Source: a virus (taxonomy: Duplodnaviria; Caudoviricetes). From it: a DNA stretch of 64,000 nucleotides. Below, in pieces: positions 16,111 through 37,504 of this stretch. Position 1 is the first letter of the stretch, and the number at the start of each line of letters is the position of its first letter. The stretch lies in the IMG/VR virus record IMGVR_UViG_3300050343_000089, positions 1,679 to 65,678 of that record. One strand, 5' to 3'. The position numbers and the translations under genes were made by a program. A model generated the notes under the pieces. The model had not been told where the DNA came from and did no database searches. It saw only the letters and a list, made by a program, of their open reading frames with translations.

Positions 16111-16125
16111 ACGAGGAATAAAATA

Positions 16126-18462: not shown

Positions 18463-18500
18463 TATATAATTTAATTTTAATAAACTTATAGGAGAGACTA

Positions 18501-18761: not shown

Positions 18762-18997
18762 TGCCTAGAGTCACCGCACAAGATATCGGAGTTGAATTAG
18801 AAAAACACGAAATCCAATGCGGTGAAAGATGGACTCAAAATTGGAATAGACTGAAAAAAATAGAAGAACAAGTTAAAGATTTAGATGGTAAAACTGAAGC
18901 TAAACTTAACAAAATTGACTGGTCTATTAAAGTTTGGTTTGGGTGCAGTGATATTAATACTATTAAGTGGCATTTTACCTTGATTATTAAATTATGA
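18761..18997 (+). CDS. Coiled-coil plus transmembrane lysis-module protein
   Basis: HEIQCGERW coiled coil; copy B (52617-52853) shows the hydrophobic tail GLGAVILILLSGILTLII. Confidence 0.6.
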   Translation: MPRVTAQDIGVELEKHEIQCGERWTQNWNRLKKIEEQVKDLDGKTEAKLNKIDWSIKVWFGCSDINTIKWHFTLIIKL

Positions 18998-19365
18998 TAG
19001 ATAAACTAATCCAACCAGTCAGTGACATTTTAGATAAATTTGTTGCTGACAAAGATTTAAAAACAAAACTATCTCATGAACTTGAGAAGGAAATAATTTC
19101 GCTTAATAAAGCACAATTGGAAGTAAACAAAGTTGAAGCAGCACACAATAATGTATTTGTCTCAGGGTGGAGGCCTTTTATTGGCTGGGCATGTGGTGTT
19201 TCACTCGCTTATCATTTTATTATAGAACCCATTATTCAATACACTCTTATAGTCAACAACATTGACTACAATACACCTGAGTTTGATTTCAGCCAACTAT
19301 CAACAATCGTTATGGCAATGCTTGGGATGAGCGGCTTGCGAACTTACGAAAAAATTAAAAAGTAA
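18994..19365 (+). CDS. Holin (GTA 3TM holin family)
   Basis: NKVEAAH...FVSGWRPFIGWACG...MLGMSGLRTYEK. Confidence 0.85.
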   Translation: MIDKLIQPVSDILDKFVADKDLKTKLSHELEKEIISLNKAQLEVNKVEAAHNNVFVSGWRPFIGWACGVSLAYHFIIEPIIQYTLIVNNIDYNTPEFDFSQLSTIVMAMLGMSGLRTYEKIKK

Positions 19366-19366
19366 C

Positions 19367-19810
19367 ATGACAGATAAAATAAGAGAAATGTTAGTTAAGC
19401 ATGAAGGCTTACGAACTTTTCCCTATAAATGCTCTGAAGATAAATTAACAATTGGCATAGGTAGAAACTTAGAGGCAAATGGCATATCAGAAGATGAAGC
19501 TATGTATCTACTTGATAATGATATTAAAAGAGTCATAGAGAGCTTAGACAAGCACTGGCATGTTTGGAGAAGTTTCCCTGAACTTGCACAAATGGTTTGT
19601 GTTGATTGCACCTTTCAAATGGGCATAACAGGATGGATGGCTTTTAGACATACAAGAGCACTTATGGAAATGGAGTGCTGGATAGAAGCATCAGAAGAAA
19701 TACTTAGAAGTAAGTATGCAACACAAACACCTAATAGAGCAGCTTATAATTCAAGACAGTTAGCCTTATGTCAAAATGCCAAGAAAAACATCAGATCAAC
19801 ATCAGGCTAA
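19367..19810 (+). CDS. Endolysin, GH24 phage lysozyme
   Basis: HEGLRTFPYKC...LTIGIGRNL...SKYATQTPNRA. Confidence 0.85.
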   Translation: MTDKIREMLVKHEGLRTFPYKCSEDKLTIGIGRNLEANGISEDEAMYLLDNDIKRVIESLDKHWHVWRSFPELAQMVCVDCTFQMGITGWMAFRHTRALMEMECWIEASEEILRSKYATQTPNRAAYNSRQLALCQNAKKNIRSTSG

Positions 19811-20222
19811 TTCAAGACTAGGTGCTTTGGGTGAATCCTTAGTACAAACATTCCTTTTGGAATATGCAGACTTCTGCTTTCCAACCCAAGAAAAACATCC
19901 AGCAGATTTAATCGTAGAGTTTGGCAACGCTATATATACAGTTCAAGTTAAAAGTAGAAGAGCTACTAAAGAAAAGAAGTTTGTCTTTGCTGCTGAGAAC
20001 TCAAGATCAATGTCTGATACTTACAAGAACTATACTTGCGATATTCTAGCCTTTGTATTCTTCTTTGATGGTCAAAAGAGAATCATGTTTAAATCTAATA
20101 CATCCTCACAAAACTACTTTACCTTTGATAAAAAGATTATCACTGACACTATGGAATTAGATTCACTTCAAGAATCTCTCGATACCCTTAGCTCCGTACC
20201 TGTTCTTAACCCTATAATATAA
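19776..20222 (+). CDS. Free-standing PD-(D/E)XK endonuclease (I-Ssp6803I-like homing endonuclease family)
   Basis: GALGE...HPADLIV...VQVKS motif; identical protein at 53657-54103. Confidence 0.7.
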   Translation: MPRKTSDQHQANSRLGALGESLVQTFLLEYADFCFPTQEKHPADLIVEFGNAIYTVQVKSRRATKEKKFVFAAENSRSMSDTYKNYTCDILAFVFFFDGQKRIMFKSNTSSQNYFTFDKKIITDTMELDSLQESLDTLSSVPVLNPII

Positions 20223-20225
20223 TCC

Positions 20226-20262
20226 TTGCTTATTATATAAATATGATTTAATATATTTATAT
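20226..20262 (+). promoter_or_regulatory. Probable rightward early promoter with operator half-sites
   Basis: TTGCTT followed by AT-rich ATATAAATAT and ATATTTATAT half-sites, upstream of a GAGGAG RBS. Confidence 0.5.
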
Positions 20263-20281
20263 TAATTAGAGAGGAGTTAAT

Positions 20282-20371
20282 ATGACACATGAACTTATGA
20301 TGAGACTAGCACTACTAGGAATGATAGTGTGCTTATGGTTAATTTACTTATTACAAAAAGGGGGTATGTAA
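20282..20371 (+). CDS. 29-aa membrane peptide MTHELMMRLALLGMIVCLWLIYLLQKGGM
   Basis: GAGGAG RBS, TAATG coupling to the next gene, identical at 54163-54252. Confidence 0.6.
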   Translation: MTHELMMRLALLGMIVCLWLIYLLQKGGM

Positions 20372-20550
20372 TGGATATACATTTACACGAAGTTGGCAAG
20401 GTCAGACCATTGATCTTAACTAAAAGGCAAATAAGGGGTTACTACAAAGACTACCTTACTGGCGAGAACAAAGTGCAAACAGCAAATGAAGAATATGTTG
20501 TTAGAGACTCTTTGACAGAAATTGCATATTTAATGGGTGAGCAAAGATGA
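20371..20550 (+). CDS. Hypothetical protein (MDIHLHEVGK...)
   Basis: Translationally coupled; identical in copy B (54252-54431). Confidence 0.65.
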   Translation: MDIHLHEVGKVRPLILTKRQIRGYYKDYLTGENKVQTANEEYVVRDSLTEIAYLMGEQR

Positions 20551-21380
20551 AGATAGAATCACTAAAGAACTTTACAGCAGAAAGGAAGGGACAAGCACTT
20601 ATCTATAAAGACATACCTAATGAGGATTATCATGCAGGTGTAGGTATAAGCAGTAGTTATATTAGAAGATTTGGTCAGTCACAATTACATGCTGTAGAGC
20701 ATAAACAAGAAAGCACACCAGCACTAAAGTTTGGGACAGCAGCACATTCTTTGATTGTAGAAGGCAGAGAGGCTTTTGATAAAGAAGTAAAGGTTGTTAG
20801 TGGCTCTCCATATACAAAAGCCTACAAAGAAGAGAAGGCTGATTATGAAGATCAAGGCTATATAGTATTAAAAGAAGCAGAATTAGAACTGCTAGAAAGC
20901 ATGAAGGCAAATATGATTTACGAAGGTAATGCCTACTTAAATGCTAAAGGCAAAGTTGCAGAAGCAAGTATCTACTGGTATGAAGATGACATTCTTTGTA
21001 AGTGTAGACCTGATTTATTGTGCCCACCTTTAAGTGAACCTAATTCAGACAGCAAGATAATTATAGTAGATTACAAGACCACTATATCTTGCGAACCTTA
21101 TGCCTTTAATAAATCAGTTAGAAAGTATGGATATGATATGCAGGCGGCATGGTATAGAAGAGGTTTAGAGTCAGCAGGATATAGCGTAGATGGTTTTGTA
21201 TTTATAGCTCAGGAGAAAGTTCATCCTTATGCTTCTAAGGTATTTAGAATAACTAAAGAGCAAATTGATTATGGGTGGACAATAATGGAGAGATATTTAG
21301 AAGAGTACAAGGAGTATCAACAAGGTAAGCCTCTAAGTATCTATAACAGTCCTAATATTGTTGATTTGGTTTTTGAGTAA
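20547..21380 (+). CDS. RecE/exonuclease VIII-like PD-(D/E)XK nuclease (DUF3799-like)
   Basis: NEDYHA..ISSS, FGTAAH, CKCRPD, IVDYKTT, YDMQAAWY. Confidence 0.85.
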   Translation: MKIESLKNFTAERKGQALIYKDIPNEDYHAGVGISSSYIRRFGQSQLHAVEHKQESTPALKFGTAAHSLIVEGREAFDKEVKVVSGSPYTKAYKEEKADYEDQGYIVLKEAELELLESMKANMIYEGNAYLNAKGKVAEASIYWYEDDILCKCRPDLLCPPLSEPNSDSKIIIVDYKTTISCEPYAFNKSVRKYGYDMQAAWYRRGLESAGYSVDGFVFIAQEKVHPYASKVFRITKEQIDYGWTIMERYLEEYKEYQQGKPLSIYNSPNIVDLVFE

Positions 21381-21524
21381 GGGCAAATAGATAATGAGAG
21401 TATTTAGATTTATGGAGAGTTTATCAATTGCCCTTAACAAGATTATAGGACATGAAACGGATATAAACACAAAAGAAGTGGTAAAAATCTTAAATTAATA
21501 TTAATATAAAAAAGGAGAGTTTGA

Positions 21525-21683
21525 ATGGATGAGAAGACAAAAAAAGCACTATGGATATCTGAGGACTTGCATAAAGAGATCAAGATATTCGCAATACAAA
21601 ATAACATGACTATTGAGTCTGCTTCGCAGATGGTTTTAAAACTAGGCATGTGCTCATATAAGGATAGCAATGGGTCAAAATAG
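21525..21683 (+). CDS. Ribbon-helix-helix-like small DNA-binding protein (52 aa)
   Basis: MDEKTKKALWISEDLHKEIKIFAIQNNMTIESASQMVLKLG; AAGGAG RBS; conserved at 55406-55564. Confidence 0.6.
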   Translation: MDEKTKKALWISEDLHKEIKIFAIQNNMTIESASQMVLKLGMCSYKDSNGSK

Positions 21684-21834
21684 CAAAGCAGTAGCTAAGA
21701 GAAGAGAAGAGTTAAAGACTGAAAAGTTAGATAAGCAAATTGCTTATTACTATTTCCAAAAGGGAGCTGGTAGTCATTACAGAGAAATACAATACCAAAG
21801 TGGAAGGGTTGTAAGGACTGATTTCAATGCTTGA
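21670..21834 (+). CDS. Small hypothetical protein (MGQNSKAVAKRRE...)
   Basis: Overlapping coupling; conserved in copy B. Confidence 0.55.
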   Translation: MGQNSKAVAKRREELKTEKLDKQIAYYYFQKGAGSHYREIQYQSGRVVRTDFNA

Positions 21835-21934
21835 CTGGATTCTATATATAGTTGGTGGTTTTGTTGGCTTGTTAGCAATAGCTACAATAATAAGCGTAGT
21901 AGCTGCAATTTACATACTTAATAAGCTAGATTAA
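21827..21934 (+). CDS. 35-aa membrane peptide (MLDWILYIVGGFVGLLAIATIISVVAAIYILNKLD)
   Basis: Hydrophobic ORF with TAATG coupling; mostly synonymous changes in copy B. Confidence 0.65.
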   Translation: MLDWILYIVGGFVGLLAIATIISVVAAIYILNKLD

Positions 21935-22356
21935 TGGTAAACAGTAGAAACAAAGGAGCAGCATTTGAGAGAGTTATATGTAACAAACTTAATACTGTCC
22001 TTGAATCTAAAGGTATTGATACTAGGGTTAAAAGAAACCTTGACCAGTATCAAACAAAAGGCATGGCTGATATATATTTTGATAAGTTCGCTATCGAATG
22101 TAAAAGATATAAAGCTAGTGCTAAGAAATCAATGTATAAGAATGAATGGTGGAAACAAGCAGTTGAGAGTGCTGGTGATAACCTAATTCCTATACTAATT
22201 TATAAATATGACAGGAAGCAAATAATGTGTGTGATTCCTTTGTTTTTGGTTACGTCAGTTGATACGCCAAACTGGGAATGTACTTACCTCTGCCCACTGT
22301 CAGAAATATGTGAAAATTTAGATGAAATCTTACAAAAAGCAAATGGACTTAAATAG
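21934..22356 (+). CDS. Holliday junction resolvase (Hjc-like PD-(D/E)XK)
   Basis: NSRNKGAAFER...AD...IECKR...WWKQA. Confidence 0.8.
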   Translation: MVNSRNKGAAFERVICNKLNTVLESKGIDTRVKRNLDQYQTKGMADIYFDKFAIECKRYKASAKKSMYKNEWWKQAVESAGDNLIPILIYKYDRKQIMCVIPLFLVTSVDTPNWECTYLCPLSEICENLDEILQKANGLK

Positions 22357-22531
22357 CTATTTGCTTCAAGAAGATTTTGAAGAGTTTTGTAGGAAGGCCT
22401 ATGAAAGAATCCAAGTTGCGTGTGATGTCTTTGGTATCACAAATGATGAGGATTATTATAGTTTTAAGGAAAGGAATTACACTAGACTTGAAGCTGATTA
22501 TTTAAACAGTATTGAAAGAACAATACATTAA
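22343..22531 (+). CDS. Hypothetical protein (MDLNSYLLQEDFEEF...)
   Basis: Conserved in copy B with synonymous changes. Confidence 0.6.
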   Translation: MDLNSYLLQEDFEEFCRKAYERIQVACDVFGITNDEDYYSFKERNYTRLEADYLNSIERTIH

Positions 22532-22546
22532 CTCTAGGAGAGTATT

Positions 22547-23161
22547 ATGGATATATTAGGAGGAATGAGCAATTCCACTGAAGGACAGCAAGTTTATCTT
22601 GCTTTTAAAACTGCTGATCAACAATTTTTTGTTAATGGCAAAACACCAATTGATTTTAAATACTTGCAGTTAGACCCTGCAACATTTAGAAGTGGTTGGG
22701 GTAGATATAATGGAGAGTACCAATATGTATGGGATGATAAGTTTGGTAATGCAAACGACAAACCAGCAGATGATTGGAAGAGGGCGTTTAGCTGTTGCGT
22801 TATGCCACATGGACATGACCATGCATTAATATGGAGTAGATACACTTTTGCTGAATCTAGTGCTTTCAATAAGATACTAAGTAGCTTTTGGAATCAAATG
22901 GATGCAAATAGTGATTCACTACCTGTTGTTGAGTATAAAGGCTCAAAAGAAATACAGGTTGGAGTAGGTAGATCGTCAGAGCTAACTTTTGAGTTCTCTA
23001 AGTTTGCACCTAGATTTGCTAACTTTGAAATACCTGCTCACTATGGCAAAGAAGACGAGGAAGTAGAAGATACTTTTAAGAGTCCTAATGATGGTCTTGC
23101 AGAAAAAGTGCAAGAGATGGTCGATAAGAATGAATTATCAGATGACGATATTCCTTTTTAG
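22547..23161 (+). CDS. ssDNA-binding protein-like
   Basis: Acidic DDDIPF SSB-type C-terminal tail; directly upstream of primase-helicase. Confidence 0.65.
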   Translation: MDILGGMSNSTEGQQVYLAFKTADQQFFVNGKTPIDFKYLQLDPATFRSGWGRYNGEYQYVWDDKFGNANDKPADDWKRAFSCCVMPHGHDHALIWSRYTFAESSAFNKILSSFWNQMDANSDSLPVVEYKGSKEIQVGVGRSSELTFEFSKFAPRFANFEIPAHYGKEDEEVEDTFKSPNDGLAEKVQEMVDKNELSDDDIPF

Positions 23162-25138
23162 ATGGAACATATTGATTGGCAAAGAATAGCTCCTGATGTT
23201 GCAAAGCAACTACTAGGAGAACCTACTAGCACCTCATCTAAGGAATTTAGATGGGGTCGCAAGGGGAGTATGTGTCTTAACCTTACAGATGGTACATTTT
23301 ATGATCACGAAGCAGGAGTCGGTGGGGGAGTAATAGATTTAATAAAACATCTAAATCAAGATGTGAATACAGTTTTAAAACAGTTTGGTCATGACTTAGC
23401 ATTACATTCAAATGACTCCTTAATCAGTGGCTTCAGTGATTCCCCTGTCACTAAGCCTAAAGGTAATGCTAGGTCATTCTCTAGGGAGCAAATGGTTGAC
23501 TTGTATAGACAAGCAATTGTTAAGTTAAAGTATGCTGATAATTTTATGGTTCTCAGGTTTCCTGAAGGTCATGCAATTAAACAGAAGTATGCTCCCTTTA
23601 CTCTAGGTATTGATGGTACATGGTCTTTAAAACGCCCTGACAGTCCGCTTATGCCTATTTATCATACAAATGATTGTCCTGATAAGCCTATTGTCATTAA
23701 TGAAGGAGAGAAAGCCTGTAAGGGTTGTGAGAGCATTGTTAAAGGCAAATTAGATTCATGTACTTGGCATGGTGGTGTTAATAGCTGGAAGAAGGCTGAC
23801 TGGACACCTATATTGCATAGAGAAGTGTGGATATTTCCTGACAATGATAAGGCTGGTAAAGATTGTGCTGATGAGATAGCAGAGCATTTAAGAAAAGAGG
23901 GATGCAGAAGAGTTAAGATAATACAACCACCAAAAGATTTTAAAGAGAAGGATGATTTATTTGATGCACACGAATCAGGTTATTTCGCATCATGTGATGA
24001 TTTTATTAGCTTTGTTAATAATCAAAAGGAGAAGCTACCTAAAGGTGCTTTGAGGTTTGAGAGAGCTGACTTTGTATTATCCCAAGTATCTAATCCTGAC
24101 TGGCTTATAACTGATGTCTTTGAACGCAATAGACTAATAACAGTCTTTGGAGAACCAAAATCAGGCAAATCGTTTATATCTATTGCTATGGCATGTGCTG
24201 TAGCGAGAGGTGATGAGTTCTATGGACATGCTGCTAAAAAAGCACCTGTAGTCTATCTTGCAGGGGAGGGAGTTGCAGGAATTCGTAGGAGGTTGGCCGC
24301 ATATAACCAAAGTGAGTATGGTGGTAGTTTAGTCGGAGCACCTTTATTTCTATCTAATAGAGGCTCAAGAATTAATGAACCTGAAGAATACCAAAAGCTA
24401 GAAGATGAGATTAATTTGCTCAAACAAGACTTAGGGCAAATCGGTTTAATTATCTTTGATACCTTTCAGCGTAACTTCTCAGGAGATGAAAATTCTGCTC
24501 AAGAGGTCAATAAATTTGTTAAAGCCGCAGATCAGTTGATACATGACTTTGATTGTACTGTATTGCTTGTACATCATACTGGAAGAGGTAATAAAGGAAG
24601 AGCTAGGGGTAGTTCTGTTCTTGATGCTTCTATTGATGGAGAGTTCTTGGTAGAGAGAAAAGGTACTAAGCCTGATGATGATAACTCTATGCTAGTTACT
24701 ATGAAGCAGACTAAGAACAAAGATGGTATGGGTATGGCAGAGAAGAAGTTTGAATTCCATGAAGAGACTTTGATTGGCGAAGGTCTTGATGTTACTTCAG
24801 GACTGCTTATTGAGACAGATGTTGATATTAAAACTAACAAGGATATAGAAAAAGATGTTGATATTAAGATAGCAGATAAAATGTATTCACTATCTATGGC
24901 AATAGCTAAAAGTGATAACTGTAAACCTGAAGATGTATGGTTCACATACACAACATTTAATAGTGATTTAAAGGGAGTACATCATCTAAAAAATGCAAAA
25001 GATGAGCCTTATGCAAAATACACAGTCGATAATTCACTAAGAAGAATGGAAAAGCTAGGAGTAGTAGAAAAAAATCCAAAAGGAAATGGCTATAGGCTGG
25101 TAGATGCTGATTTTACAAGGTTTAACAAGGGTGTGTAA
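23162..25138 (+). CDS. Primase-helicase (TOPRIM plus AAA_25/RepA-type SF4 helicase)
   Basis: EGEKA...FPDNDKAG TOPRIM; GEPKSGKS Walker A; LIIFDT; VHHTG...RARGSS. Confidence 0.9.
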   Translation: MEHIDWQRIAPDVAKQLLGEPTSTSSKEFRWGRKGSMCLNLTDGTFYDHEAGVGGGVIDLIKHLNQDVNTVLKQFGHDLALHSNDSLISGFSDSPVTKPKGNARSFSREQMVDLYRQAIVKLKYADNFMVLRFPEGHAIKQKYAPFTLGIDGTWSLKRPDSPLMPIYHTNDCPDKPIVINEGEKACKGCESIVKGKLDSCTWHGGVNSWKKADWTPILHREVWIFPDNDKAGKDCADEIAEHLRKEGCRRVKIIQPPKDFKEKDDLFDAHESGYFASCDDFISFVNNQKEKLPKGALRFERADFVLSQVSNPDWLITDVFERNRLITVFGEPKSGKSFISIAMACAVARGDEFYGHAAKKAPVVYLAGEGVAGIRRRLAAYNQSEYGGSLVGAPLFLSNRGSRINEPEEYQKLEDEINLLKQDLGQIGLIIFDTFQRNFSGDENSAQEVNKFVKAADQLIHDFDCTVLLVHHTGRGNKGRARGSSVLDASIDGEFLVERKGTKPDDDNSMLVTMKQTKNKDGMGMAEKKFEFHEETLIGEGLDVTSGLLIETDVDIKTNKDIEKDVDIKIADKMYSLSMAIAKSDNCKPEDVWFTYTTFNSDLKGVHHLKNAKDEPYAKYTVDNSLRRMEKLGVVEKNPKGNGYRLVDADFTRFNKGV

Positions 25139-25230
25139 ATAAAGTGTGTAAACTGTGTAACTGTGTAAGATACATTATATTAGTGTGTAGAGTGTGTAGT
25201 AGTCCATAGGACTACACACTTACACATTAT
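25131..25230. repeat. TGTGTA short repeats plus inverted repeat, candidate replication origin
   Basis: Six TGTGTA direct copies, then gtagtcc-ata-ggactac hairpin and TACACA inverted copies; conserved at 59013-59112. Confidence 0.5.
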
Positions 25231-25255
25231 TATGTATAGCACAAAGGAATAGTAT

Positions 25256-26000: not shown

Positions 26001-26211
26001 TTTAGTAAATAAACCCCCTCATTACAATAAAGGCAAATTTGAATGTATAGACTACATAAAGCAACAGTTAGGTGCAAATTTCCCTGCATATCTTGAAGGT
26101 AACGCTATAAAGTATCTACATAGGCACAAATATAAAGACTCTAACATTCAAGACTTAGAGAAAAGTATTTGGTATATTAATAAATTAAAAGAACATTATG
26201 AGAACCTATAA
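25993..26211 (+). CDS. DUF3310 family protein
   Basis: VNKPPHY...ECID...GNAIKY..R...QDLEKSIWYI. Confidence 0.85.
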   Translation: MTDLVNKPPHYNKGKFECIDYIKQQLGANFPAYLEGNAIKYLHRHKYKDSNIQDLEKSIWYINKLKEHYENL

Positions 26212-26381
26212 TGAGCAATAAACCGCAAATTGATGTTTCGCAATTAAAAAGGCAAATCGATAAAGGCAAATCACTAAACGAGGTGGTCATGTCTCTTGGT
26301 AAAAGCAAATCGACTATTTTAAAAGTTGCTAACGAGAATGGTTTAAAGTTTGATAAAAAGTCTCATTGGGCAAATTTATGA
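26211..26381 (+). CDS. Small helix-turn-helix-like protein (56 aa)
   Basis: KGKSLNEVVMSLGKSKSTILKVA; conserved at 60108-60278. Confidence 0.6.
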   Translation: MSNKPQIDVSQLKRQIDKGKSLNEVVMSLGKSKSTILKVANENGLKFDKKSHWANL

Positions 26382-26692
26382 ATATATCTTTAGATTATGA
26401 TGATACATATTCTTTAGACCCTAAAACTTGGGATAAAATAATTGATATACTACAAAAGGCAAATCACAATGTTTTTTGTGTAACAAAGAGATATGAATCT
26501 ATAGCAGATGATATAAAAGAATCTTTAGACATACCTATAGTTTTTGTACCTAAAGGCAAATCTAAGTCTGCTGAAGTAAGGGACAGAGGTTTAAAGATAG
26601 ATGTTTGGATTGATGACAAGCCTTTATCAATAACTGGTAGAAATGTAAGTCAAGGCAAATTTCATAGAAAACATTTTTTTGGGCAAATTTAA
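26378..26692 (+). CDS. Small HAD-superfamily phosphatase-like protein (copy A only)
   Basis: LDYDDT motif I, VTKR, VWIDD motif IV. Confidence 0.75.
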   Translation: MNISLDYDDTYSLDPKTWDKIIDILQKANHNVFCVTKRYESIADDIKESLDIPIVFVPKGKSKSAEVRDRGLKIDVWIDDKPLSITGRNVSQGKFHRKHFFGQI

Positions 26693-26722
26693 CATTGAGG
26701 CAAATTTAGGTTTAAGGCAAAT

Positions 26723-27379
26723 ATGGATATACAAGTAAAAACTGATCTCAAACAACTGCAAAAAAAGCTAGATATTCTTCGTGACAAAACATTCAACAAA
26801 GTTATGAGCGAAGGAATAAACTTTACAGCAGAGAGAGTTGTCAATGCACAAAGGCAAATGTTGGTAAAAAAACTACATAGACCAAAACCATTTTCAGTTA
26901 AATCTATAATAATGTCACAATTTGCTAAGCCTAGTAAAACACGATTAAAAGCAACTGTAAGGGTTAAAGATAAGTCCGCGTCTTATTTGTATTACATTTA
27001 TACAGGAGATATTGAACCTGCTAGAAGAGAGGCTTATGCTTCACCAACAAACGAAGGCAGAACAAAAGCAAACCAATATGGAAATATTGTTACCAAAAAA
27101 GGACTTATAAAAAAAATAGATGCAACAGACAAAAGCAACAGAAAAGGCTCACGTTTTGTTGGTGTACCTAAAGGTAAAGGCTCTAAAGTTTATGGTGTAT
27201 GGGAGAGACAGGGTAAGAAGGGTAGAGAAGGCTTAAACCTTCTTGTTGCCTATACTCCCTTTATTAGGCATAGAAAGTTTATTGATTGGTTTAAGTTGAG
27301 TCATAAGGTAGTGAAGAATAATCTTTATAAAGAGATCAATAAGCAAATGATTAAAAGGGTTAAGAGGGTAATGAGATAA
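26723..27379 (+). CDS. Basic tail-completion-like protein (gpZ/HK97 gp10-like), displaced from the tail module
   Basis: Very basic; INFTAERV, HRPKPF, GVWER pattern; divergent homologue at 60337-61023. Confidence 0.5.
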   Translation: MDIQVKTDLKQLQKKLDILRDKTFNKVMSEGINFTAERVVNAQRQMLVKKLHRPKPFSVKSIIMSQFAKPSKTRLKATVRVKDKSASYLYYIYTGDIEPARREAYASPTNEGRTKANQYGNIVTKKGLIKKIDATDKSNRKGSRFVGVPKGKGSKVYGVWERQGKKGREGLNLLVAYTPFIRHRKFIDWFKLSHKVVKNNLYKEINKQMIKRVKRVMR

Positions 27380-27425
27380 AGGCAAATTTACCTTAGAGGC
27401 AAATTTACCTTTACTGCAAATTTAA

Positions 27426-27653
27426 TTAATTACTATACAACAAACAAGATTGTATAAATAATGAATCCGCCTCATCATAGTTTTTAAAATATGCAATATC
27501 AGAATAAATACCGCTTTTTCTTTTCGGCTCATATTTATCACCTTCATATTTAAGGATATCAACATAATATTTTTTGCCTTTTTGTTTTAAAAGAACATAA
27601 GGTTTTTTAGTTTTAAAATGTGTTACCCTGCTTTGCAATAATACTTTTTTCAT
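27426..27653 (-). CDS. Early mini-gene (MKKVLLQSRV...), last cassette, copy A only
   Basis: Starts at an AAGGAGCAAGACTAATG junction. Confidence 0.65.
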   Translation of the reverse strand: MKKVLLQSRVTHFKTKKPYVLLKQKGKKYYVDILKYEGDKYEPKRKSGIYSDIAYFKNYDEADSLFIQSCLLYSN

Positions 27654-27871
27654 TAGTCTTGCTCCTTGCAATCAATACAAATAAATTCTTCACAATCTGA
27701 ATTCCAAACATACTGTAAACAACTATCACAACAAGTATGCTCAGGTTGACTTGCATTAAATTCTTGTTCAAATTCTTCATCATTCAAAGAATTATCTATA
27801 TTTATAAATGGGTGATTATTATTAGAATGTAATGTTCTTATTTGTTTAAATGTAAATTTTTCTATATTCAT
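27653..27871 (-). CDS. Early mini-gene, Cys-rich, ends KEQD
   Basis: Bounded on both sides by the junction motif. Confidence 0.7.
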   Translation of the reverse strand: MNIEKFTFKQIRTLHSNNNHPFINIDNSLNDEEFEQEFNASQPEHTCCDSCLQYVWNSDCEEFICIDCKEQD

Positions 27872-28059
27872 TAGTCTTGCTCCTTCTTATATGCACACAC
27901 AACAAAGTTATAACCCTCTGCCTCTGTATCTAAATCTAACAAATCAGTAAGCGTATCCAATACATTTACTTTATGTGATTCAGCATAATCAACACCAAAC
28001 CACACACCGTCAGGAACTATAGTCCACCCATTCTTTTTAAGTTCTTGTTTAGTTATCAT
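27871..28059 (-). CDS. Early mini-gene MITKQELKKNGW..., ends KEQD
   Basis: AAGGAG RBS; same protein at 61556-61744. Confidence 0.75.
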   Translation of the reverse strand: MITKQELKKNGWTIVPDGVWFGVDYAESHKVNVLDTLTDLLDLDTEAEGYNFVVCAYKKEQD

Positions 28060-28095
28060 GTTATTTAACTCCTTAATTTTATTTAACATACACCT

Positions 28096-28124
28096 ATGAT
28101 ATATAAATATATATTTATATGCAA
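28096..28124 (-). promoter_or_regulatory. Leftward sigma70-type promoter TTGCAT-N17-TATCAT with the 20-bp palindrome ATATAAATATATATTTATAT
   Basis: Read directly; palindrome at 28101-28120. Confidence 0.7.
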
Positions 28125-28131
28125 TAGTTAA

Positions 28132-28330
28132 ATGCAAATTTATATTTAAGGCAAATTTAAGATCAAGGCAAATACTGTTTTGATGCAAATTTAGTATCAA
28201 GGCAAATACTGTTTTGATGCAAATTTAGTATCAAGGCAAATTTAGTATCAAGGCAAATTTAGTATCAAGGCAAATTTATTTTTCATAAAAGGCAAATTTA
28301 TTTTTCATAAAAAAAGGCAAATTTATTTTT
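28132..28330 (+). repeat. Tandem array of (AG)GCAAAT units (11 cores; first nine at 17-bp period)
   Basis: AAGGCAAATTTAGTATC units followed by longer A/T-tract units. Confidence 0.95.
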
Positions 28331-28517
28331 GACAAAAAACATCAAAATTTTTTTTGGACAAAAAAAACAAAGACCAACAACAAAAACACCACAAGACATT
28401 CTAAGCCTCTACATTACAATATAAATATATATAGGTAGTAATGCATTACTTTAATATAAAAACACCGCATAAAGGCTTAGAGGCTCTCTTATATAAAGAT
28501 TTATTTATTAAGGGCAT

Positions 28518-28547
28518 AAAAAAAGGCGGTAATAATACCGCCCTTTA
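28518..28547 (-). terminator. Intrinsic terminator of the distal leftward operon
   Basis: ggcggta-ataa-taccgcc stem with A7 on its left (U7 in the leftward transcript); same at 62391-62420. Confidence 0.8.
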
Positions 28548-29209: not shown

Positions 29210-29350
29210 TTATTTACCCCTTATTAATTTTAATTTATGCCCTTGATTAGTTAGGCGGTTAAATTTGTCTTGCATGGTTACAAGACATGAACCCCTAAAG
29301 GCTACAAAGCCTTTAAGTGATCCTTTGTTTATTATGATTTTATATTTCAT
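29210..29350 (-). CDS. Early mini-gene MKYKIIINKGSLKGF...IRGK
   Basis: Homologue at 62671-62811; TAATG coupling. Confidence 0.65.
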   Translation of the reverse strand: MKYKIIINKGSLKGFVAFRGSCLVTMQDKFNRLTNQGHKLKLIRGK

Positions 29351-29871: not shown

Positions 29872-29901
29872 ATTATATATAAATATATATTTATATGTCA
29901 A
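29872..29901 (-). promoter_or_regulatory. Consensus sigma70 promoter TTGACA-N18-TATAAT with the 20-bp palindrome
   Basis: Read directly on the minus strand; palindrome at 29877-29896. Confidence 0.8.
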
Positions 29902-30054
29902 TAATTAATTTAATAAATATTTATTTCTTTTTTAATACCTTTATAAGTTTCATGAATAATACATTTAGTATTATTTTCTTGTCATTCCCTTGATTTTTTC
30001 GCGTTGTTTCTTCTTGTCCTCTGAATCCCTTTGTTTATAGGCTTCTGAAACGCT

Positions 30055-30096
30055 AGGTTCTTCTGACCCAGTGGGTACGCAGGTTGCGTGATCGCA
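30055..30096 (+). other. Putative cos site (cosQ/cosN-like)
   Basis: AGGTTCT...GTACG-CAGGTTGCGTGAT-CGCA resembles lambda GGGTCCT...TTACG-GGGCGGCGACCT-CGCG; GC-rich patch upstream of the Nu1-like gene; recurs at 63964-63996. Confidence 0.55.
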
Positions 30097-30216
30097 TTAT
30101 TTTTGTAGAGACAGAGCTGTAACATCAGCCGTATTTATAATATAAAAGTCTTTTTGTAATTGAGCTTTGAATGAAGTATATTTATACTTATGAGTATTAA
30201 GAAACTACTATAAAAC

Positions 30217-30741
30217 TTGGCCACTAGAAAAGAACTAGCAGAGCATCTTGACCTGTCTCCTCAATCTATTAGCGATCTAATTGGAAAGGGTATATTTACT
30301 ATCAGCTCAGGAAGATCGCCTGTTAATATAGATGTGTGCAGGGTTCAATACATAAACTATTTAAGAAAAGCTGCTAGATATACTAAAAAAGATGGTACAG
30401 GTGACATAGCAGAAGAGAAAACCAAACTTACTGCTGCTCAGGCTAGAAAGGCTGAACTTGAAGTAGAAATTATGGAAGGAAAGTTAGTGCCTATACAAGA
30501 AGTTGAGGAGTTTTTGGTTGAAAGGTTTTCAAACGCTAGAGCCAAATGGCTTGGCGTTCCCTCAAAGATTGCACATAAAGTAATTACAGTTGATACTTTT
30601 GCTGAAGCGGAACAAGAAATAAAAGAAGGAATATACGAAGGATTAAACGAACTGGCTAATGATGGAATACCTGAAAAATATAGAACGAGTGGTAGAGAGT
30701 ACGAATCAAGTTTGGACTCCCCCACCCAATCTAAAGATTAG
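30217..30741 (+). CDS. Terminase small subunit (Nu1-like)
   Basis: N-terminal wHTH (TRKELAEHLDLSPQSISDL), coiled coil AQARKAELE...GKLV. Confidence 0.85.
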   Translation: MATRKELAEHLDLSPQSISDLIGKGIFTISSGRSPVNIDVCRVQYINYLRKAARYTKKDGTGDIAEEKTKLTAAQARKAELEVEIMEGKLVPIQEVEEFLVERFSNARAKWLGVPSKIAHKVITVDTFAEAEQEIKEGIYEGLNELANDGIPEKYRTSGREYESSLDSPTQSKD

Positions 30742-32482
30742 CGACTGGGCAGATAACTACAGAAGACTATCTCCTGAATCATCTGCTGAGTCAGGTGTTT
30801 GGAGAACTGACAGAGCACCCTACCAAAGAGAAATCATGGACTCATTTAATGACCATGATATACAGCGTATAGTTTGGATGAAATCTTCTCAGGTTGGTGC
30901 TACAGAGATATTGTTAAATGTTATTGGTTATTACATAGATCAAGACCCTGCACCTATGTTGATTATGCAGCCTACACTAGCTATGGCTCAGGCGTTTAGT
31001 AAAGATAGGCTTGCTACCATGATAAGGGATTCTGAGAAGATAAGAGATTGTGTTAAAGACCCTAGAAGTAGAGATAGTGGTAATACAGTGCTATCTAAAA
31101 AGTTTGTTGGCGGAAACCTTACAATGGTTGGGTCTAATAGTGCTGCTGGACTCGCTTCAAGAGCTATAAGAATTTTGCTTGCTGATGAAACTGACAGGTA
31201 TGAGGCATCAGCAGGAGCAGAGGGAGACCCAATATCACTTGCAACCAAGAGGACAACTACTTTTTGGAATAGAAAAATATACTTATGCTCCACTCCTACA
31301 ATAAAAGGACTTTCAAGAATAGAAACAGCTTTTGAAGAGTCTGATAAGCGTTACTACTATGTGCCATGCCCTGAATGTAATGAAAAACAAGTTTTAAAGT
31401 GGAAGAACGTAATTTGGGAAGAAAATAAGCCTGAGACAGCAGCTTATGCTTGCGAACATTGTGGTTCTATAATAAATGAGTCTAAAAAACAATGGATGTT
31501 AAAGCATGGAGAGTGGATAGCTACAGAAAAGAAAACAGGAACAGCAGGATTTCATATATCAGAGCTATATTCTGTTTGGTCTACTTGGTCAGAAATGGCT
31601 ATTAACTTTCTTGAAGCAAAAAAGAATCCTGAAATGTTAAAAACTTGGATAAATACATCTCTTGGAGAATCTTGGGAAGAACAAGGAGAAGCAGTTGAAT
31701 ATGAGACACTTCTTGGTAGAAGGTTAAATTATGACTACACAACCATTCCTGAAGATGTTTTAGTTCTTACTGCTGGAGTGGACACGCAGAAGGATAGGTT
31801 GGAACTGCAATTGGTCGGATGGGGTAAAAATTATGAGGCTTGGGTGTGTGACTATAAGATATTTTGGGGAGACCCAAATGCTATGAATGTTTGGTCAGAC
31901 CTAGACTCCTATCTTAAGAAAAGATTTAAAACTGAATCTGAGAGATTAATACCCATATCATGTTGTACTATTGACTCAGGTGGACATCATACGAACATGG
32001 TTTATCAATTCACAAAACCTAGACAGGCTAGAAGAATATTTGCTGTAAAAGGATTATCAACAGCAGGTAAGCCAATAGCAAATAGGCCAACATTTGTAGG
32101 TAAAAATAAGGCTGTTTTATACGGAGTAGGGTCAGATTCTGCAAAAGAAGCCATTTTTTCTCGTTTAGCTGCTGATAATGAGTCAACTACTTTACATTTT
32201 TGCTCTGATCTTGATGAAGAGTACTTTAAACAGCTAACAGCAGAAAAAAGAGTAACAAAGTTTATTAGAGGAAGAAAAAGTCTTGTTTGGAAACAAATAA
32301 GACCAAGAAATGAGGCTCTTGACACACTTGTATATAATTTTGCTGCTATATACATACTAAACCCTAATTATGACTCTATTGAGCAAAAAATACTAACAAA
32401 ACAAGCAGCACCAAAAGAAAACAACCAAAATAAGCCACAAAAAGGCATAAATAGAGGTAATTTTGCTACTTCTTGGAAGTAA
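30659..32482 (+). CDS. Terminase large subunit (lambda gpA family)
   Basis: PYQREIMD, KSSQVGATE, LLADETDRY, STPT, CPEC/CEHC, AGVDTQ, RNEALD. Confidence 0.95.
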   Translation: MMEYLKNIERVVESTNQVWTPPPNLKISDWADNYRRLSPESSAESGVWRTDRAPYQREIMDSFNDHDIQRIVWMKSSQVGATEILLNVIGYYIDQDPAPMLIMQPTLAMAQAFSKDRLATMIRDSEKIRDCVKDPRSRDSGNTVLSKKFVGGNLTMVGSNSAAGLASRAIRILLADETDRYEASAGAEGDPISLATKRTTTFWNRKIYLCSTPTIKGLSRIETAFEESDKRYYYVPCPECNEKQVLKWKNVIWEENKPETAAYACEHCGSIINESKKQWMLKHGEWIATEKKTGTAGFHISELYSVWSTWSEMAINFLEAKKNPEMLKTWINTSLGESWEEQGEAVEYETLLGRRLNYDYTTIPEDVLVLTAGVDTQKDRLELQLVGWGKNYEAWVCDYKIFWGDPNAMNVWSDLDSYLKKRFKTESERLIPISCCTIDSGGHHTNMVYQFTKPRQARRIFAVKGLSTAGKPIANRPTFVGKNKAVLYGVGSDSAKEAIFSRLAADNESTTLHFCSDLDEEYFKQLTAEKRVTKFIRGRKSLVWKQIRPRNEALDTLVYNFAAIYILNPNYDSIEQKILTKQAAPKENNQNKPQKGINRGNFATSWK

Positions 32483-33189: not shown

Positions 33190-34682
33190 TGGCGTGGTAC
33201 AACAGAATATTGGGCGTTAATGAGCCTAAGAAGAAAAAAAGACAAGCATATAGAAGAAGCTATACTGGTGCGAACACTGGTAGACTTTTTGCTGATTTTG
33301 TTACTACATCAACCAGTGCTGATGCTGAGATAAAAGACAACATAAGAATATTAAGAGATAGAGCAAGGGAGTTAGCAAGAAACGATAGCTATATTGCAAG
33401 ATACCTTAACCTGATGGTGTCCAATGTTATCGGTAAGCATGGCATAAGAGTTTCTAGCAAAGGTCGTGATGACAATGGTTCATTAGACATTGCTGGAAAC
33501 CAGCTCATTGAAGATGCTTGGAAGGAATGGGGTAAGGTTGGTAATTGCACAACTAATGGAAGATTATCATTCTTAGACTGTCAAAAAATATTTATTGAAT
33601 CTCTTTGTAGAGATGGAGAAGTATTAGTTAGAAAAATCAAAAAGAAGGATTCGCCTTTTGGTTTTGAATTACAGTTTTTAGAATCAGATCATTTGGATGA
33701 AAATAAAAATGATATTTACAAAGCTACTGGCAATCGTATTAAGATGGGTGTAGAGGTAGATAAGTATGACAAACCAGTTGCTTATCACTTATTTAAAGAC
33801 CATCCTTTTGATAGAGTTTACTTAGCTCAAGCACAACACATTAGAGTACCTGCTGATGAGATTATCCATGCTTACCTACCTTCTAGGGCAGAACAAACTA
33901 GAGGTGTTTCTTTGGTTGCTACAGCAATGGCTAATGTGAAAATGTTAAATGGTTATTTAGAAGCGGAAATAGTTGCAGCTAGAGTTGGTGCATCTAAAAT
34001 GGGTTTCTTTACTTCACCTGATGGTGATGGTTATGTTGGTGATGGAGAGTATGAGGATACCTTCAACCCAACAATGAACGCACAAGCTGGGGTCTTTGAG
34101 CAGCTTCCACAAGGTATGGATTTCAAAGCCTTTGACCCTACACATCCAACATCTGCTTTTGATTCTTTTACAACTAGCGTGCTGAGAAGCATTGCTTCAG
34201 GTTTAAATATTTCTTACCACTCATTAAGTAATGACCTTACATCAGTAAATTACAGCTCAATAAGGCAAGGTGCTCTTGAGGATAGAAGTATGTATCAGAT
34301 ATATCAGCAATTTGTTATAGATCATTTTGTAGACCCTATCTTTAAATCATGGTTAGAAATGTCTATATCAAATGGTTATATAAACCTACCTATGAGCAAG
34401 GTGGATAAATTTTCAAAATCAATAAATTACATACCAAGAAGTTTTGCTTGGATTGACCCATTAAAAGAAATGCAGGCAAATGTTATAGGTTTGCAGAATG
34501 GAACTCTTACTTACGCAGATATATCCAGTAGTTATGGTAGAGATACAGAAGAATTATTTGAACAACATCAAAAAGAAATAGAACTAGCCAAACAATATGA
34601 TATTGAACTAGCATATCAACCATTTGGTCAAAAGAACCCAGTAGATGCAAAGATACAGGGCGGAGATGACGAAGATGAGTAA
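33189..34682 (+). CDS. Lambda-type portal protein
   Basis: LRDRARELARND, QTRGVS, VNYSSIR, WIDPLKE. Confidence 0.95.
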   Translation: MAWYNRILGVNEPKKKKRQAYRRSYTGANTGRLFADFVTTSTSADAEIKDNIRILRDRARELARNDSYIARYLNLMVSNVIGKHGIRVSSKGRDDNGSLDIAGNQLIEDAWKEWGKVGNCTTNGRLSFLDCQKIFIESLCRDGEVLVRKIKKKDSPFGFELQFLESDHLDENKNDIYKATGNRIKMGVEVDKYDKPVAYHLFKDHPFDRVYLAQAQHIRVPADEIIHAYLPSRAEQTRGVSLVATAMANVKMLNGYLEAEIVAARVGASKMGFFTSPDGDGYVGDGEYEDTFNPTMNAQAGVFEQLPQGMDFKAFDPTHPTSAFDSFTTSVLRSIASGLNISYHSLSNDLTSVNYSSIRQGALEDRSMYQIYQQFVIDHFVDPIFKSWLEMSISNGYINLPMSKVDKFSKSINYIPRSFAWIDPLKEMQANVIGLQNGTLTYADISSSYGRDTEELFEQHQKEIELAKQYDIELAYQPFGQKNPVDAKIQGGDDEDE

Positions 34683-37236: not shown

Positions 37237-37286
37237 TTAACTAATGCTTAAATGGAATGGGGGTGGAAACGCCCCCAACTTAAATA

Positions 37287-37501: not shown

Positions 37502-37504
37502 ATT

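What the first reader, a model, noticed from the sequence alone, without database searches (positions are those of the whole stretch)
26030..28330. Strand-polarised GGCAAAT motif amplified into arrays near the right genome end: candidate Chi-like end-protection/recombination system
Seen: GGCAAAT occurs on the + strand at about 15 scattered sites in the first 25 kb (e.g. near 976, 6252, 7648, 7721, 13465, 14060, 16128, 17993, 19474, 20426, 20906, 21382, 23744, 24164, 24435). About 12 more fall in 26.0-27.4 kb, inside and between genes, followed by a tandem array about 1.8 kb from the cos-like end (11 cores in A, 18 in B at 61830-62204). Spacing varies (about 13-25 bp) while core and orientation stay fixed, and by eye I found no ATTTGCC on the + strand. 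Established: in lambda, terminase stays on the left end, so RecBCD enters from the right end and only top-strand Chi sites work; Chi rescues red-gam- phage. Inference: this lambda-packaging phage, with no recognisable Gam or RecT, may stack an undescribed host Chi-type sequence at its exposed end. Alternatives are origin iterons, primase/helicase loading sites, KOPS-like sites or protein decoys.
Basis: partly seen in the sequence, partly recalled or inferred. Interest (0 to 1): 0.85.

Follow-up and report, generated by a model that had tools for sequence, protein, structure and literature searches.

The report
Polar heptamer arrays in marine phages
A clade of uncultured marine phages writes the 7-letter word GGCAAAT on one DNA strand only, ever more densely towards one genome end and finally in tandem arrays, which looks most like a host recombination (Chi-type) signal but has not been proven to be one.

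Summary
GGCAAAT occurs 78 times on the + strand and never on the - strand. The window is two related ~34-kb lambda-type cos phages joined head to tail.

- Scattered copies are selected. There are 15 in unit A's genes against 4.1 or 2.2 expected under codon-aware nulls. In 39 array-bearing relatives the density is 0.85 per kb; in 19 array-less relatives it is 0.064 per kb.
- Density rises towards the right end and peaks in 5-18-unit arrays about 1.8 kb from it.
- Segments recently shared with array-less relatives lack sites.
- The arrays are not the primase-linked origin. A separate iteron-palindrome element after the primase-helicase gene tracks the primase clade.
- No phage protein found here qualifies as a universal reader. 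The neighbouring 56-aa HTH is missing in three array-bearing loci.

The pattern matches a published class: lambdoid phages with top-strand, right-end-clustered host Chi sites (PMC12315714). My best reading is a Chi-like signal for a host end-entering nuclease, at about 0.4. The decisive host-genome test could not be run.

Other notes of this scan on this same window were consulted. No look-alike was found elsewhere in the scan.

The parts
976..24441 (+). 16 scattered GGCAAAT copies of unit A. Fifteen lie inside + strand genes, in all three frames, and one is intergenic (21382).
20547..21380 (+). RecE-family PD-(D/E)XK exonuclease (phrog_412, DUF3799). This type is correlated with array presence, but not strictly.
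23162..25138 (+). Toprim / AAA_25 primase-helicase. It has no column that separates array-bearing from array-less relatives.
25139..25250 (.). Origin-like element: GTGTGTAA-type direct repeats, an A+T spacer, a central palindrome and inverted copies. It is not part of the GGCAAAT system.
26032..26722 (+). Dense zone of unit A with 10 exact sites, including 2 inside the HTH gene (26251, 26265), 1 at its 3' end (26369) and 4 just before the tail-completion gene (26654-26716).
26211..26381 (+). 56-aa three-helix HTH protein (HTH56). It is a candidate reader, but its gene is absent in three array-bearing relatives.
26723..27379 (+). Tail-completion-like protein (218 aa). Its allele co-varies with array presence.
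27381..27421 (+). Small array of 2 exact cores plus 1 TGCAAAT at 17-nt period, between the convergent gene ends.
28096..28124 (-). Sigma-70-like leftward early promoter (TTGCAT ... TATCAT), read by eye against its 12/12 twin at 29901-29872. It lies 8 nt from the first array unit.
28133..28322 (+). Main array of unit A with 11 units (8 GGCAAAT, 3 TGCAAAT) at periods of 17, 22 and 25 nt.
28323..28400 (+). A/C-rich, strand-asymmetric tract that follows the array. It is conserved in relatives.
28525..28542 (.). Bidirectional terminator-like hairpin at the end of the right-hand leftward operon.
29213..29350 (-). c0, a 46-aa early protein. It is the only widely conserved protein of the leftward module (15 of 17 complete modules).
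29872..29901 (-). Consensus sigma-70 leftward early promoter (12 of 12 matches) next to the right end.
30050..30110 (.). Boundary between units A and B, the inferred cos region. The contig end of unit B falls at the equivalent place.
30659..32482 (+). Large terminase of the lambda gpA family (GpA_ATPase plus GpA_nuclease). It fixes the lambda-type left-to-right orientation.
34475..58323 (+). 12 scattered copies of unit B, with none between 42696 and 54307.
59870..60465 (+). Dense zone of unit B with 9 exact sites, 5 of them in a run directly before the tail-completion gene.
61025..61049 (+). Small array of unit B after the tail-completion gene.
61832..62196 (+). Main array of unit B with 18 exact cores.

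Best explanation
The motif is GGCAAAT, more fully 5'-A-R-GGCAAAT-3'. It is a strand-polar signal that works by density and is kept by selection on the top strand of one clade of low-G+C, lambda-type cos-packaging marine phages (CRP-822-type).

It most likely works like Chi.
- A host helicase-nuclease that enters a free duplex end (RecBCD- or AddAB-type) gets in at the right genome end, the end that terminase does not cover.
- It runs leftwards through the early operon, which is expendable late in infection, and meets the tandem array about 1.8 kb in.
- Eleven to eighteen consecutive copies make recognition almost certain. The enzyme stops degrading and starts recombination, which protects the genome and helps to build concatemers.
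- The sparser copies further left are back-ups, and their selective value falls with distance from the entry end.

Shown: the polarity, the over-representation, the gradient, the synonymous conversions, the loss of sites in imported segments, the lambda-type terminase, and the absence of a universal phage reader among the proteins tested.

For: 1. Polarity and enrichment are tied to the system.
- 39 array-bearing loci hold 167 GGCAAAT and 1 ATTTGCC in 197,226 nt upstream of the dense zone.
- 19 array-less relatives hold 8 and 2 in 125,099 nt.
- 22 ambiguous loci were left out of both groups.

2. Codon-aware nulls in the window give 15 observed against 4.1 or 2.2 expected.

3. There is a gradient. 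To the left of the main array the density is about 4 per kb at 1-3 kb, 0.9-1.0 per kb at 3-10 kb and 0.2-0.4 per kb at 10-30 kb. To the right it is 0.1-0.4 per kb. A Kolmogorov-Smirnov test for right-end clustering gives p = 3e-14 for unit B and 2.6e-7 for unit A over all sites.

4. Selection acts on the exact word. GGCAAAT is 12.5-fold enriched over array-less relatives. Most one-letter variants are about 1-fold. GGTAAAT is depleted to 0.2-fold, which is a synonymous Gly-codon switch.

5. Sites turn over. There are 220 distinct isolated sites, with information only at positions -2 and -1 and in the core.

6. Imported DNA lacks sites. Tiles at least 88% identical to array-less relatives have 0.15 sites per kb. 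The values are 0.39 at 82-88% identity, 0.89 at 75-82% and 1.07 below 75%.

7. Polarity follows the genome, not the gene. In leftward genes the genome-plus orientation occurs 11 times (about 5 outside array overlaps) against 1.04 expected. The gene-sense orientation occurs 7 times against 4.2 expected.

8. No universal phage reader was found.
- The primase-helicase, TerS, TerL and five other shared proteins have 0 discriminating columns.
- HTH56 is absent in array-bearing L099, L110 and L137.
- c0 is absent in L107, L109 and L137.

9. The large terminase is gpA-type and the portal is lambda-type.

10. There is a published precedent (PMC12315714, sections 6 and 16 read). Phage LLS has 20 of 23 Chi sites on the top strand, clustered at the right end. 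Phage MD8 has 32 to 0. Imported modules lack Chi.
Against: - The host is unknown and no host genome could be examined, so the defining property of a Chi site is untested.
- Tandem arrays with a fixed 17-nt period (396 of 463 spacings) are not needed for Chi. Nor are the conserved spacer positions: T at +14 in 96% of 51 distinct spacers, and TT at +8 and +9. Both fit cooperative protein binding better.
- In PMC12315714 the word 'tandem' occurs 0 times.
- Arrays occur only in phages that carry the ~3-kb leftward early module. The Chi reading does not explain this.
- The 33 HTH56 alleles found next to arrays share a distinct turn and recognition-helix signature.
- The right-most 1.8 kb is left unprotected.
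- Array-bearing phages carry a RecE-family exonuclease and a RusA-like resolvase. The published Chi-rich class lacks Rec modules.
- The Chi sequences I recall are G-rich, and this word is not.
- The pooled loci are related to each other, so pooled counts are not independent events.
Confidence: 0.4

Rival explanations
1. The sites are binding sites for a phage-encoded sequence-specific DNA-binding protein, with the 56-aa HTH as the most likely candidate. It would bind head to tail on the arrays and act as an architectural or regulatory element at the borders of the leftward early module.
For: - HTH56 folds as a three-helix HTH (pLDDT 82). Its best, weak matches are DNA-binding domains of resolvase, Hin and KorB.
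- 33 distinct alleles carrying [KR]SK[SF]TIL have 5-26 sites nearby. 9 alleles carrying [SH]PSTV[RK] have 0-1.
- Four sites lie in or at its own gene.
- The period is fixed at 17 nt across 51 distinct spacers.
- The main array begins 8 nt from the -35 hexamer of a leftward promoter.
- Arrays exist only together with the leftward module.
Against: - L099, L110 and L137 have arrays but no HTH gene.
- The discriminating residues K-S-K-S are themselves encoded by an AGCAAAT variant site, so the co-variation is confounded.
- Simple binding does not explain 167-to-1 polarity at sites about 1 kb apart, nor the gradient.
- A roadblock against leftward transcription is contradicted, because plus-oriented sites are enriched, not avoided, inside leftward genes.
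Confidence: 0.22
2. The motif is a polar signal for DNA packaging or ejection. It could slow or stop the terminase before the terminal cos, or act as an injection-stop or end-processing array like the repeat blocks near the ends of T7 and at the first-step-transfer border of T5 (both recalled, not checked here).
For: The orientation agrees with the left-to-right packaging implied by the gpA terminase. Density rises towards the last-packaged end. The early sigma-70 promoters point inwards from that end.
Against: - TerS and TerL alleles do not co-vary with the motif. Identity between array-bearing and array-less phages reaches 0.96 and 0.95, with 0 discriminating columns.
- Array-less relatives with the same terminase type package without the motif.
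- The arrays lie 1.8 kb from the end, not at it.
Confidence: 0.1
3. The array and its A-rich tract form a second, iteron-type replication origin or helicase/primase loading zone.
For: There are direct repeats at a 17-25-nt period followed by an A-rich tract in a non-coding gap. The dense zone begins about 0.8 kb to the right of the primase-linked origin-like element.
Against: - A separate iteron-palindrome element follows the primase-helicase gene in all 20 relatives inspected. Its repeat type tracks the primase clade, independently of GGCAAAT status.
- The primase-helicase has no column or 50-residue window that follows motif status.
- Iterons are not expected as polar, genome-wide copies inside genes.
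Confidence: 0.06
4. The motif acts at the RNA or transcription level, for example as a site for an RNA-binding protein or an elongation factor on rightward transcripts.
For: Nearly all copies lie on the sense strand of rightward genes.
Against: - In leftward genes the gene-sense orientation is not enriched (7 against 4.2 expected), while the antisense, genome-plus orientation is.
- The main array lies between a terminator and a promoter of leftward units.
- By my reading of the ORF list, scattered sites show no relation to gene starts.
Confidence: 0.04

Closest known systems
Lambdoid phages with abundant, right-end-clustered host Chi sites (LLS class; P. aeruginosa phage MD8). Genome Res 2025, PMC12315714; sections 6 and 16 and search passages read.
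   Same: - Lambda-type terminase and orientation.
- A short asymmetric word almost only on the top strand.
- Concentration towards the right end.
- Related phages with and without the word.
- Imported segments lack it.
   Different: - There the word is the experimentally known Chi of the host. Here the host and its Chi are unknown.
- There the sites are dispersed. Here they also form 5-18-unit tandem arrays at a 17-nt period.
- That class lacks Rec modules. These phages carry a RecE-family exonuclease.
- That paper's Supplemental Table S3 could not be seen.
Chi sites of bacterial chromosomes read by RecBCD or AddAB (recalled; Chi evolution preprint 10.1101/2020.08.13.249359, abstract seen)
   Same: A polar word of 5-8 nt that works by density and with high sequence specificity.
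   Different: Chi is defined in the host chromosome and by its effect on the enzyme. Neither could be tested. The known examples I recall are G-rich.
Iteron origins (lambda ori/O, phage P4 alpha protein with its iterons; recalled)
   Same: Tandem direct repeats next to an A+T-rich tract.
   Different: The repeat type does not track any replication protein. The family has a separate origin-like element that does. Iterons are not spread genome-wide in one orientation.
KOPS/FtsK and SRS/SpoIIIE polar guide words (recalled)
   Same: A genome-wide polar word whose density rises towards a focal point.
   Different: Those guide a chromosome translocase towards dif. No such translocase or target is evident in the phage.
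Direct-repeat arrays bound by small DNA-binding proteins (P2 Cox, lambda Xis and R388 StbA recalled; R388 ArdK bound to a direct repeat, PDB 7bca, listed)
   Same: Phased direct repeats beside promoters, with a small HTH gene next to them.
   Different: Those sites are confined to control regions and need their protein. Here three array-bearing loci lack the HTH gene, and copies are polar across the whole genome.

Membership tests
Phage-borne Chi sites (LLS class, PMC12315714) | A short asymmetric word, over-represented and almost exclusively on the top strand relative to the terminase-left orientation | tested here: met
   The window has 78 on + and 0 on -. Codon-aware nulls give 15 observed against 4.1 or 2.2 expected. 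Relatives give 167 to 1. TerL is gpA-type.
Phage-borne Chi sites (LLS class, PMC12315714) | Sites concentrated towards the right genome end | tested here: met
   Gradient over 51 non-redundant loci. Kolmogorov-Smirnov p = 3e-14 (unit B) and 2.6e-7 (unit A) for all sites. Isolated sites alone in a single genome are not significant (p about 0.16-0.17).
Phage-borne Chi sites (LLS class, PMC12315714) | The word is the host's Chi: over-represented and co-oriented with replication in the host chromosome | not testable with these tools
   Host unknown. 
Phage-borne Chi sites (LLS class, PMC12315714) | Recognition by RecBCD or AddAB switches the enzyme from degradation to recombination | not testable with these tools
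   Needs biochemistry or genetics.
Phage-borne Chi sites (LLS class, PMC12315714) | Chi-rich phages lack their own Rec module and anti-RecBCD function | tested here: inconclusive
   Array-bearing phages carry a phrog_412 PD-(D/E)XK exonuclease and a RusA-like resolvase. No annealase or Gam was recognised. Exonuclease type against motif status: (+,412) 35; (-,434) 12; (+,434) 3; (?,434) 2; (?,412) 1; (-,none) 1.
Phage-borne Chi sites (LLS class, PMC12315714) | Segments recently imported from word-free relatives lack the word | tested here: met
   0.15 sites per kb in tiles at least 88% identical to array-less relatives, against 1.07 per kb below 75% identity.
Iteron-type replication origin | Tandem direct repeats next to an A+T-rich unwinding tract | tested here: met
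   Array at 28133-28322 followed by an A-rich tract at 28323-28400.
Iteron-type replication origin | Repeat sequence co-varies with the initiator or replicative protein | tested here: not met
   0 discriminating columns in the primase-helicase (41 array-bearing against 23 array-less sequences) and in p204 and p164. A different repeat element after the primase gene does track the primase clade.
Arrays for a dedicated small DNA-binding protein (Cox/Xis/StbA/ParR type) | The cognate protein is encoded wherever the arrays occur | tested here: not met
   HTH56 is absent from array-bearing L099, L110 and L137. c0 is absent from L107, L109 and L137. These loci are partial, so a copy elsewhere in those genomes is not excluded.
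Arrays for a dedicated small DNA-binding protein (Cox/Xis/StbA/ParR type) | Fixed phasing of the repeats irrespective of spacer sequence | tested here: met
   17-nt period in 396 of 463 spacings. 51 distinct spacers.

The most novel reading that the evidence does not exclude
GGCAAAT is not the host's own Chi but a private 'self' mark of this phage clade. It would be read by a phage-encoded or phage-modified end-entering nuclease or translocase, for example an early protein of the hypervariable leftward module that retargets a host enzyme. Marked phage DNA would then be spared and recombined while unmarked host or competitor DNA is destroyed. This would explain why the word occurs only together with the leftward early module.
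Probability: 0.12. Interest if true: 0.9.

Novelty: new variant of a known kind. Interest (0 to 1): 0.62.

Why it matters
If the Chi-like reading holds, three things follow.
- The phages hand us the first candidate Chi sequence of an abundant, largely uncultivated marine host. The family paper predicts SAR86 or SAR11. My two searches found no paper that names Chi or RecBCD together with these groups.
- The 'Chi-rich lambda-like phage' strategy would extend from enterobacteria and Pseudomonas to ocean viruses.
- These would be natural tandem Chi arrays; I know of none described, and the closest paper does not use the word 'tandem'.

If the reading fails, what remains is a strongly selected, genome-wide polar word with no known reader. 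That would be more unusual still.

Either way, the motif is a ready marker for this clade. The motif-free relatives provide a natural control.

Tried and rejected
**Origin iterons.** This was my first guess. I rejected it as the main reading after finding the primase-linked iteron-palindrome element and no co-variation with replication proteins.

**Primase recognition sites.** Rejected for the same lack of co-variation.

**Late or middle promoter.** By my reading of the ORF list and site positions, scattered sites show no relation to downstream gene starts. Fifteen of the 16 in unit A lie inside genes.

**HTH56 as obligatory reader.** Weakened by the HTH-less array-bearing loci and by the coding confound.

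**The tail-completion-like protein as reader.** Its fold points to a neck protein (VIA-align Z 10.3, rmsd 3.3, 107 residues aligned to 9mu2_P; next best Z 5.6). Foldseek against the PDB gave nothing at E <= 0.001.

**Exonuclease as obligatory partner.** Three array-bearing loci have the other exonuclease type, and L055 has the 412 type with few sites.

**Equivalent polar words elsewhere.**
- In array-less relatives I found only low-count candidates (GCGCAA, TGTCAGC, TGACTGA), and I did not take them as analogous.
- Roseophage CRP-821 shows none.

**Same arrays outside the family.**
- The fixed-period scan gave 75 loci. All belonged to the family except L083, L089 and L135.
No convincing second family emerged.

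**Database and literature look-ups that gave nothing decisive.**
- Near-identity search in named phages: no match.
- Literature search for the word itself: only primer-like chance hits in the listing.
- Sequencing runs: 4 small-share holders, all kept as contigs, so no strand or end information.
- Protein atlas for c0 and p204: only unnamed clusters.
- PHROGs for c0 and the 62-aa early protein: nothing.
- Scan notes by word and by relatives: nothing relevant.
- Supplements of PMC12629253 (Table S5, host predictions) and of PMC12315714 (Table S3) could not be seen and may bear on the host and on array-like Chi clusters.


Full report
**What the window is.** The record is one 65,678-bp contig, and the window is its bases 1679-65678. 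A self-comparison shows two related phage units joined head to tail, aligned at 80-95% identity over most of their length. Unit A runs from window 1 to about 30,100 and lacks its left-most part. Unit B runs from about 30,100 to 64,000. Nearly all genes lie on the + strand, apart from roughly 2.5 kb of leftward genes at the right end of each unit.

The large terminase has the lambda gpA ATPase and nuclease domains, and the portal is of the lambda family. The closest named phages are Roseobacter phages CRP-8xx, at 49% TerL identity. They define the 'CRP-822-type' family (PMC12629253; abstract and sections 20 and 21 read). The low-G+C subgroups of that family are predicted to infect SAR86 or SAR11. 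That paper has no hit for 'repeat', 'origin of replication' or 'primase'.

**The observation.** GGCAAAT occurs 78 times on the + strand and never on the - strand. Shuffles give 11.09 +/- 3.09 for both strands together.
- Unit A has 16 scattered copies up to 24,441. It has 13 more in 26,032-27,404. Its main array holds 11 units (8 exact, 3 TGCAAAT) at 28,133-28,322.
- Unit B's main array has 18 exact cores at 61,832-62,196.
- The arrays end 1773 and 1804 nt from the unit boundary or contig end.

**Is it more than codon usage?**
- In A's 34 rightward genes I count 15 copies. A synonymous shuffle that keeps the proteins gives 4.10 +/- 1.87. Codon permutation gives 2.17 +/- 1.46. No shuffle of 400 reached 15.
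- Unit B gives 10 against 3.54 and 2.50.
- Copies sit in all three frames.
- Zero ATTTGCC in one genome is not significant by itself, since 0.6-0.9 are expected.

**Relatives give a natural control.** A protein-guided scan of IMG/VR returned 80 loci. I counted sites in the stretch up to the end of the primase gene, outside the dense zone.
- 39 array-bearing loci hold 167 GGCAAAT and 1 ATTTGCC in 197,226 nt (0.85 per kb).
- 19 array-less relatives hold 8 and 2 in 125,099 nt (0.064 per kb).
- 22 loci of unclear status were left out of both groups.

The exact word is what is selected. It is 12.5-fold enriched and most one-letter variants are near 1-fold. AGCAAAT is 2.3-fold and GGCAGAT is 3.2-fold. 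GGTAAAT is depleted to 0.2-fold, the signature of synonymous GGT-to-GGC changes. Isolated sites (220 distinct ones) carry information only at A(-2), R(-1) and the core.

**Anatomy.**
- Array-bearing phages have 3.0-3.4 kb between the tail-completion-like gene and terS. Array-less ones have 120-606 nt.
- The extra DNA is a hypervariable module of leftward early genes. I found 127 protein clusters in 33 kb of unique coding DNA.
- The module has sigma-70-like promoters, one with 12 of 12 matches at 29,901-29,872, and a bidirectional terminator-like hairpin.
- The layout is conserved: tail-completion gene, small array, variable genes, main array of 5-18 units, A/C-rich tract, terminator, variable genes including the 46-aa protein c0, then cos. 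Some of the 17 'complete modules' are duplicate views of one contig.
- The 17-nt period dominates, at 396 of 463 spacings, across 51 distinct spacers.

**Not the primase-linked origin.** Directly after the primase-helicase gene, every one of 20 inspected relatives has 4-5 direct repeats, an A+T spacer, a palindrome and inverted copies (window 25,139-25,250). The repeat type follows the primase clade: GTGTGTAA, TTGGGTG, TTGGTTT or TAGTTACAT. It ignores GGCAAAT status. The primase-helicase has no column or 50-residue window that separates 41 array-bearing from 23 array-less sequences. The same holds for TerS, TerL and five other shared proteins.

**Who reads the word?** Only two shared proteins differ consistently between the two groups.
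- The 218-aa protein has 25 discriminating columns. It is a tail-completion-like neck protein. PHROG 1924 matches at 2e-21. VIA-align gives Z 10.3 to 9mu2_P, with the next best at 5.6.
- The 56-aa HTH has 7 discriminating columns. It folds as a three-helix HTH. It weakly resembles resolvase and Hin DNA-binding domains. Its 33 alleles found next to arrays share [KR]SK[SF]TIL, whereas 9 array-less alleles have [SH]PSTV[RK].

Two findings undercut the HTH as reader. The K-S-K-S residues are themselves encoded by an AGCAAAT copy. And L099, L110 and L137 have arrays but no HTH gene at all. Protein c0 is missing from L107, L109 and L137. The exonuclease type is correlated with the arrays but not strictly. 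So I found no phage protein that is always present where the arrays are.

**Which kind of polar process?**
- In leftward genes the genome-plus orientation is still enriched. I count 11 copies, about 5 once ORFs overlapping arrays are set aside, against 1.04 expected.
- The gene-sense orientation is not enriched: 7 against 4.2 expected.
- This argues against an RNA-level role and against a roadblock to leftward transcription. It points to a process that reads the DNA molecule from one end.

Density falls with distance to the left of the main array. It is about 4 per kb at 1-3 kb, 0.9-1.0 per kb at 3-10 kb and 0.2-0.4 per kb at 10-30 kb. To the right it stays low.

Array-bearing and array-less phages share segments of up to 94-96% nucleotide identity, so they recombine and must share hosts at least in part. 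In array-bearing genomes, 500-nt tiles at least 88% identical to an array-less relative hold 0.15 sites per kb. Tiles below 75% identity hold 1.07 per kb. Sites are therefore gained by mutation and kept by selection in this genomic background.

**Comparison with what is known.** A 2025 paper (PMC12315714; sections 6 and 16 and search passages read) describes the same logic. Lambdoid phage LLS has 23 Chi sites, 20 of them on the top strand and most near the right end. P. aeruginosa phage MD8 has 32 to 0. Sixty-two of 68 lambdoid phages without a Rec module have at least 8 active-orientation Chi sites, and imported modules lack Chi. The present case shares the terminase type, the polarity, the right-end clustering, the mixed clade and the pattern in imported segments.

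It differs in several ways.
- The word is not a known Chi, and the host is unknown.
- Tandem arrays with a fixed period are new. 'Tandem' occurs 0 times in that paper.
- These phages carry a RecE-family exonuclease.
- The arrays are tied to a leftward early module.

Searches for 'SAR86' with 'RecBCD' and for 'Pelagibacter' with 'Chi sites' found no paper.

**Verdict.** Its defining test needs the host genome or enzyme, which I could not reach. A phage-encoded binding protein (0.22), a packaging or ejection signal (0.10), a second origin (0.06) and an RNA-level role (0.04) remain as rivals. The rest is unassigned. I rate it a new variant of a known kind, with interest about 0.6.

Noticed in passing
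window 25139-25250; the same position in L004-L076: An origin-like element directly after the primase-helicase gene: direct repeats, an A+T spacer, a palindrome and inverted copies. The repeat word changes with the primase clade (GTGTGTAA, TTGGGTG, TTGGTTT, TAGTTACAT). This is a clean case of iteron and replication-protein co-variation.
   Followed up: partly
window 1-64000: The record is a head-to-tail heterodimer of two distinct, mosaic phage genomes at 80-95% identity. Whether this is a real concatemer or an assembly join was not examined.
   Followed up: partly
window 27426-28059 and 28550-29840; leftward modules of relatives: The leftward early operons are hypervariable cassette arrays, with 127 protein clusters in 33 kb of unique coding DNA. 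Only one small protein is widely conserved: c0, 46 aa, at 29213-29350 on the minus strand. Gene junctions repeat a fixed ribosome-site block (family D9).
   Followed up: partly
L099 8697-8731, L110 3807-3870, L137: Array-bearing variants in which the HTH gene and the left-hand leftward operon are both missing. The DUF3310 gene is followed by 2-4 heptamer units and then the tail-completion gene, which is itself followed at once by the main array.
   Followed up: yes
window 34645-39259 (unit B): Where unit A has one 863-aa ORF (1146-3737), unit B has two ORFs (341 and 488 aa), and 37747-39259 has few long ORFs. These could be frameshifts or assembly errors in B. Not examined.
   Followed up: no
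window 42696-54307 (unit B): 11.6 kb without a single GGCAAAT, although unit A has six copies in its corresponding tail-fibre region. Part of B here is 88% identical to the array-less locus L069. This fits recent import from a motif-free lineage.
   Followed up: partly
L081 (PAHA01000004.1, 32,108 bp): A whole array-less phage genome of this family is filed as a contig of a Flavobacteriaceae MAG. The window phage has strong Shine-Dalgarno sites and a consensus sigma-70 promoter. From recalled knowledge of Bacteroidota promoters, I suspect a binning artefact rather than a true host.
   Followed up: no
L083 4630-4755; L089 10-67 (minus strand): Two unrelated viral contigs, one of 44% G+C and one giant-virus MAG, also carry tandem 17-nt units containing GGCAAAT with other spacers. 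Probably coincidence of the search pattern.
   Followed up: no
window 26369-26381: The last residues of the HTH protein (W-A-N-L) and its stop codon are encoded by a heptamer copy. Array-less alleles align only as far as the W.
   Followed up: no
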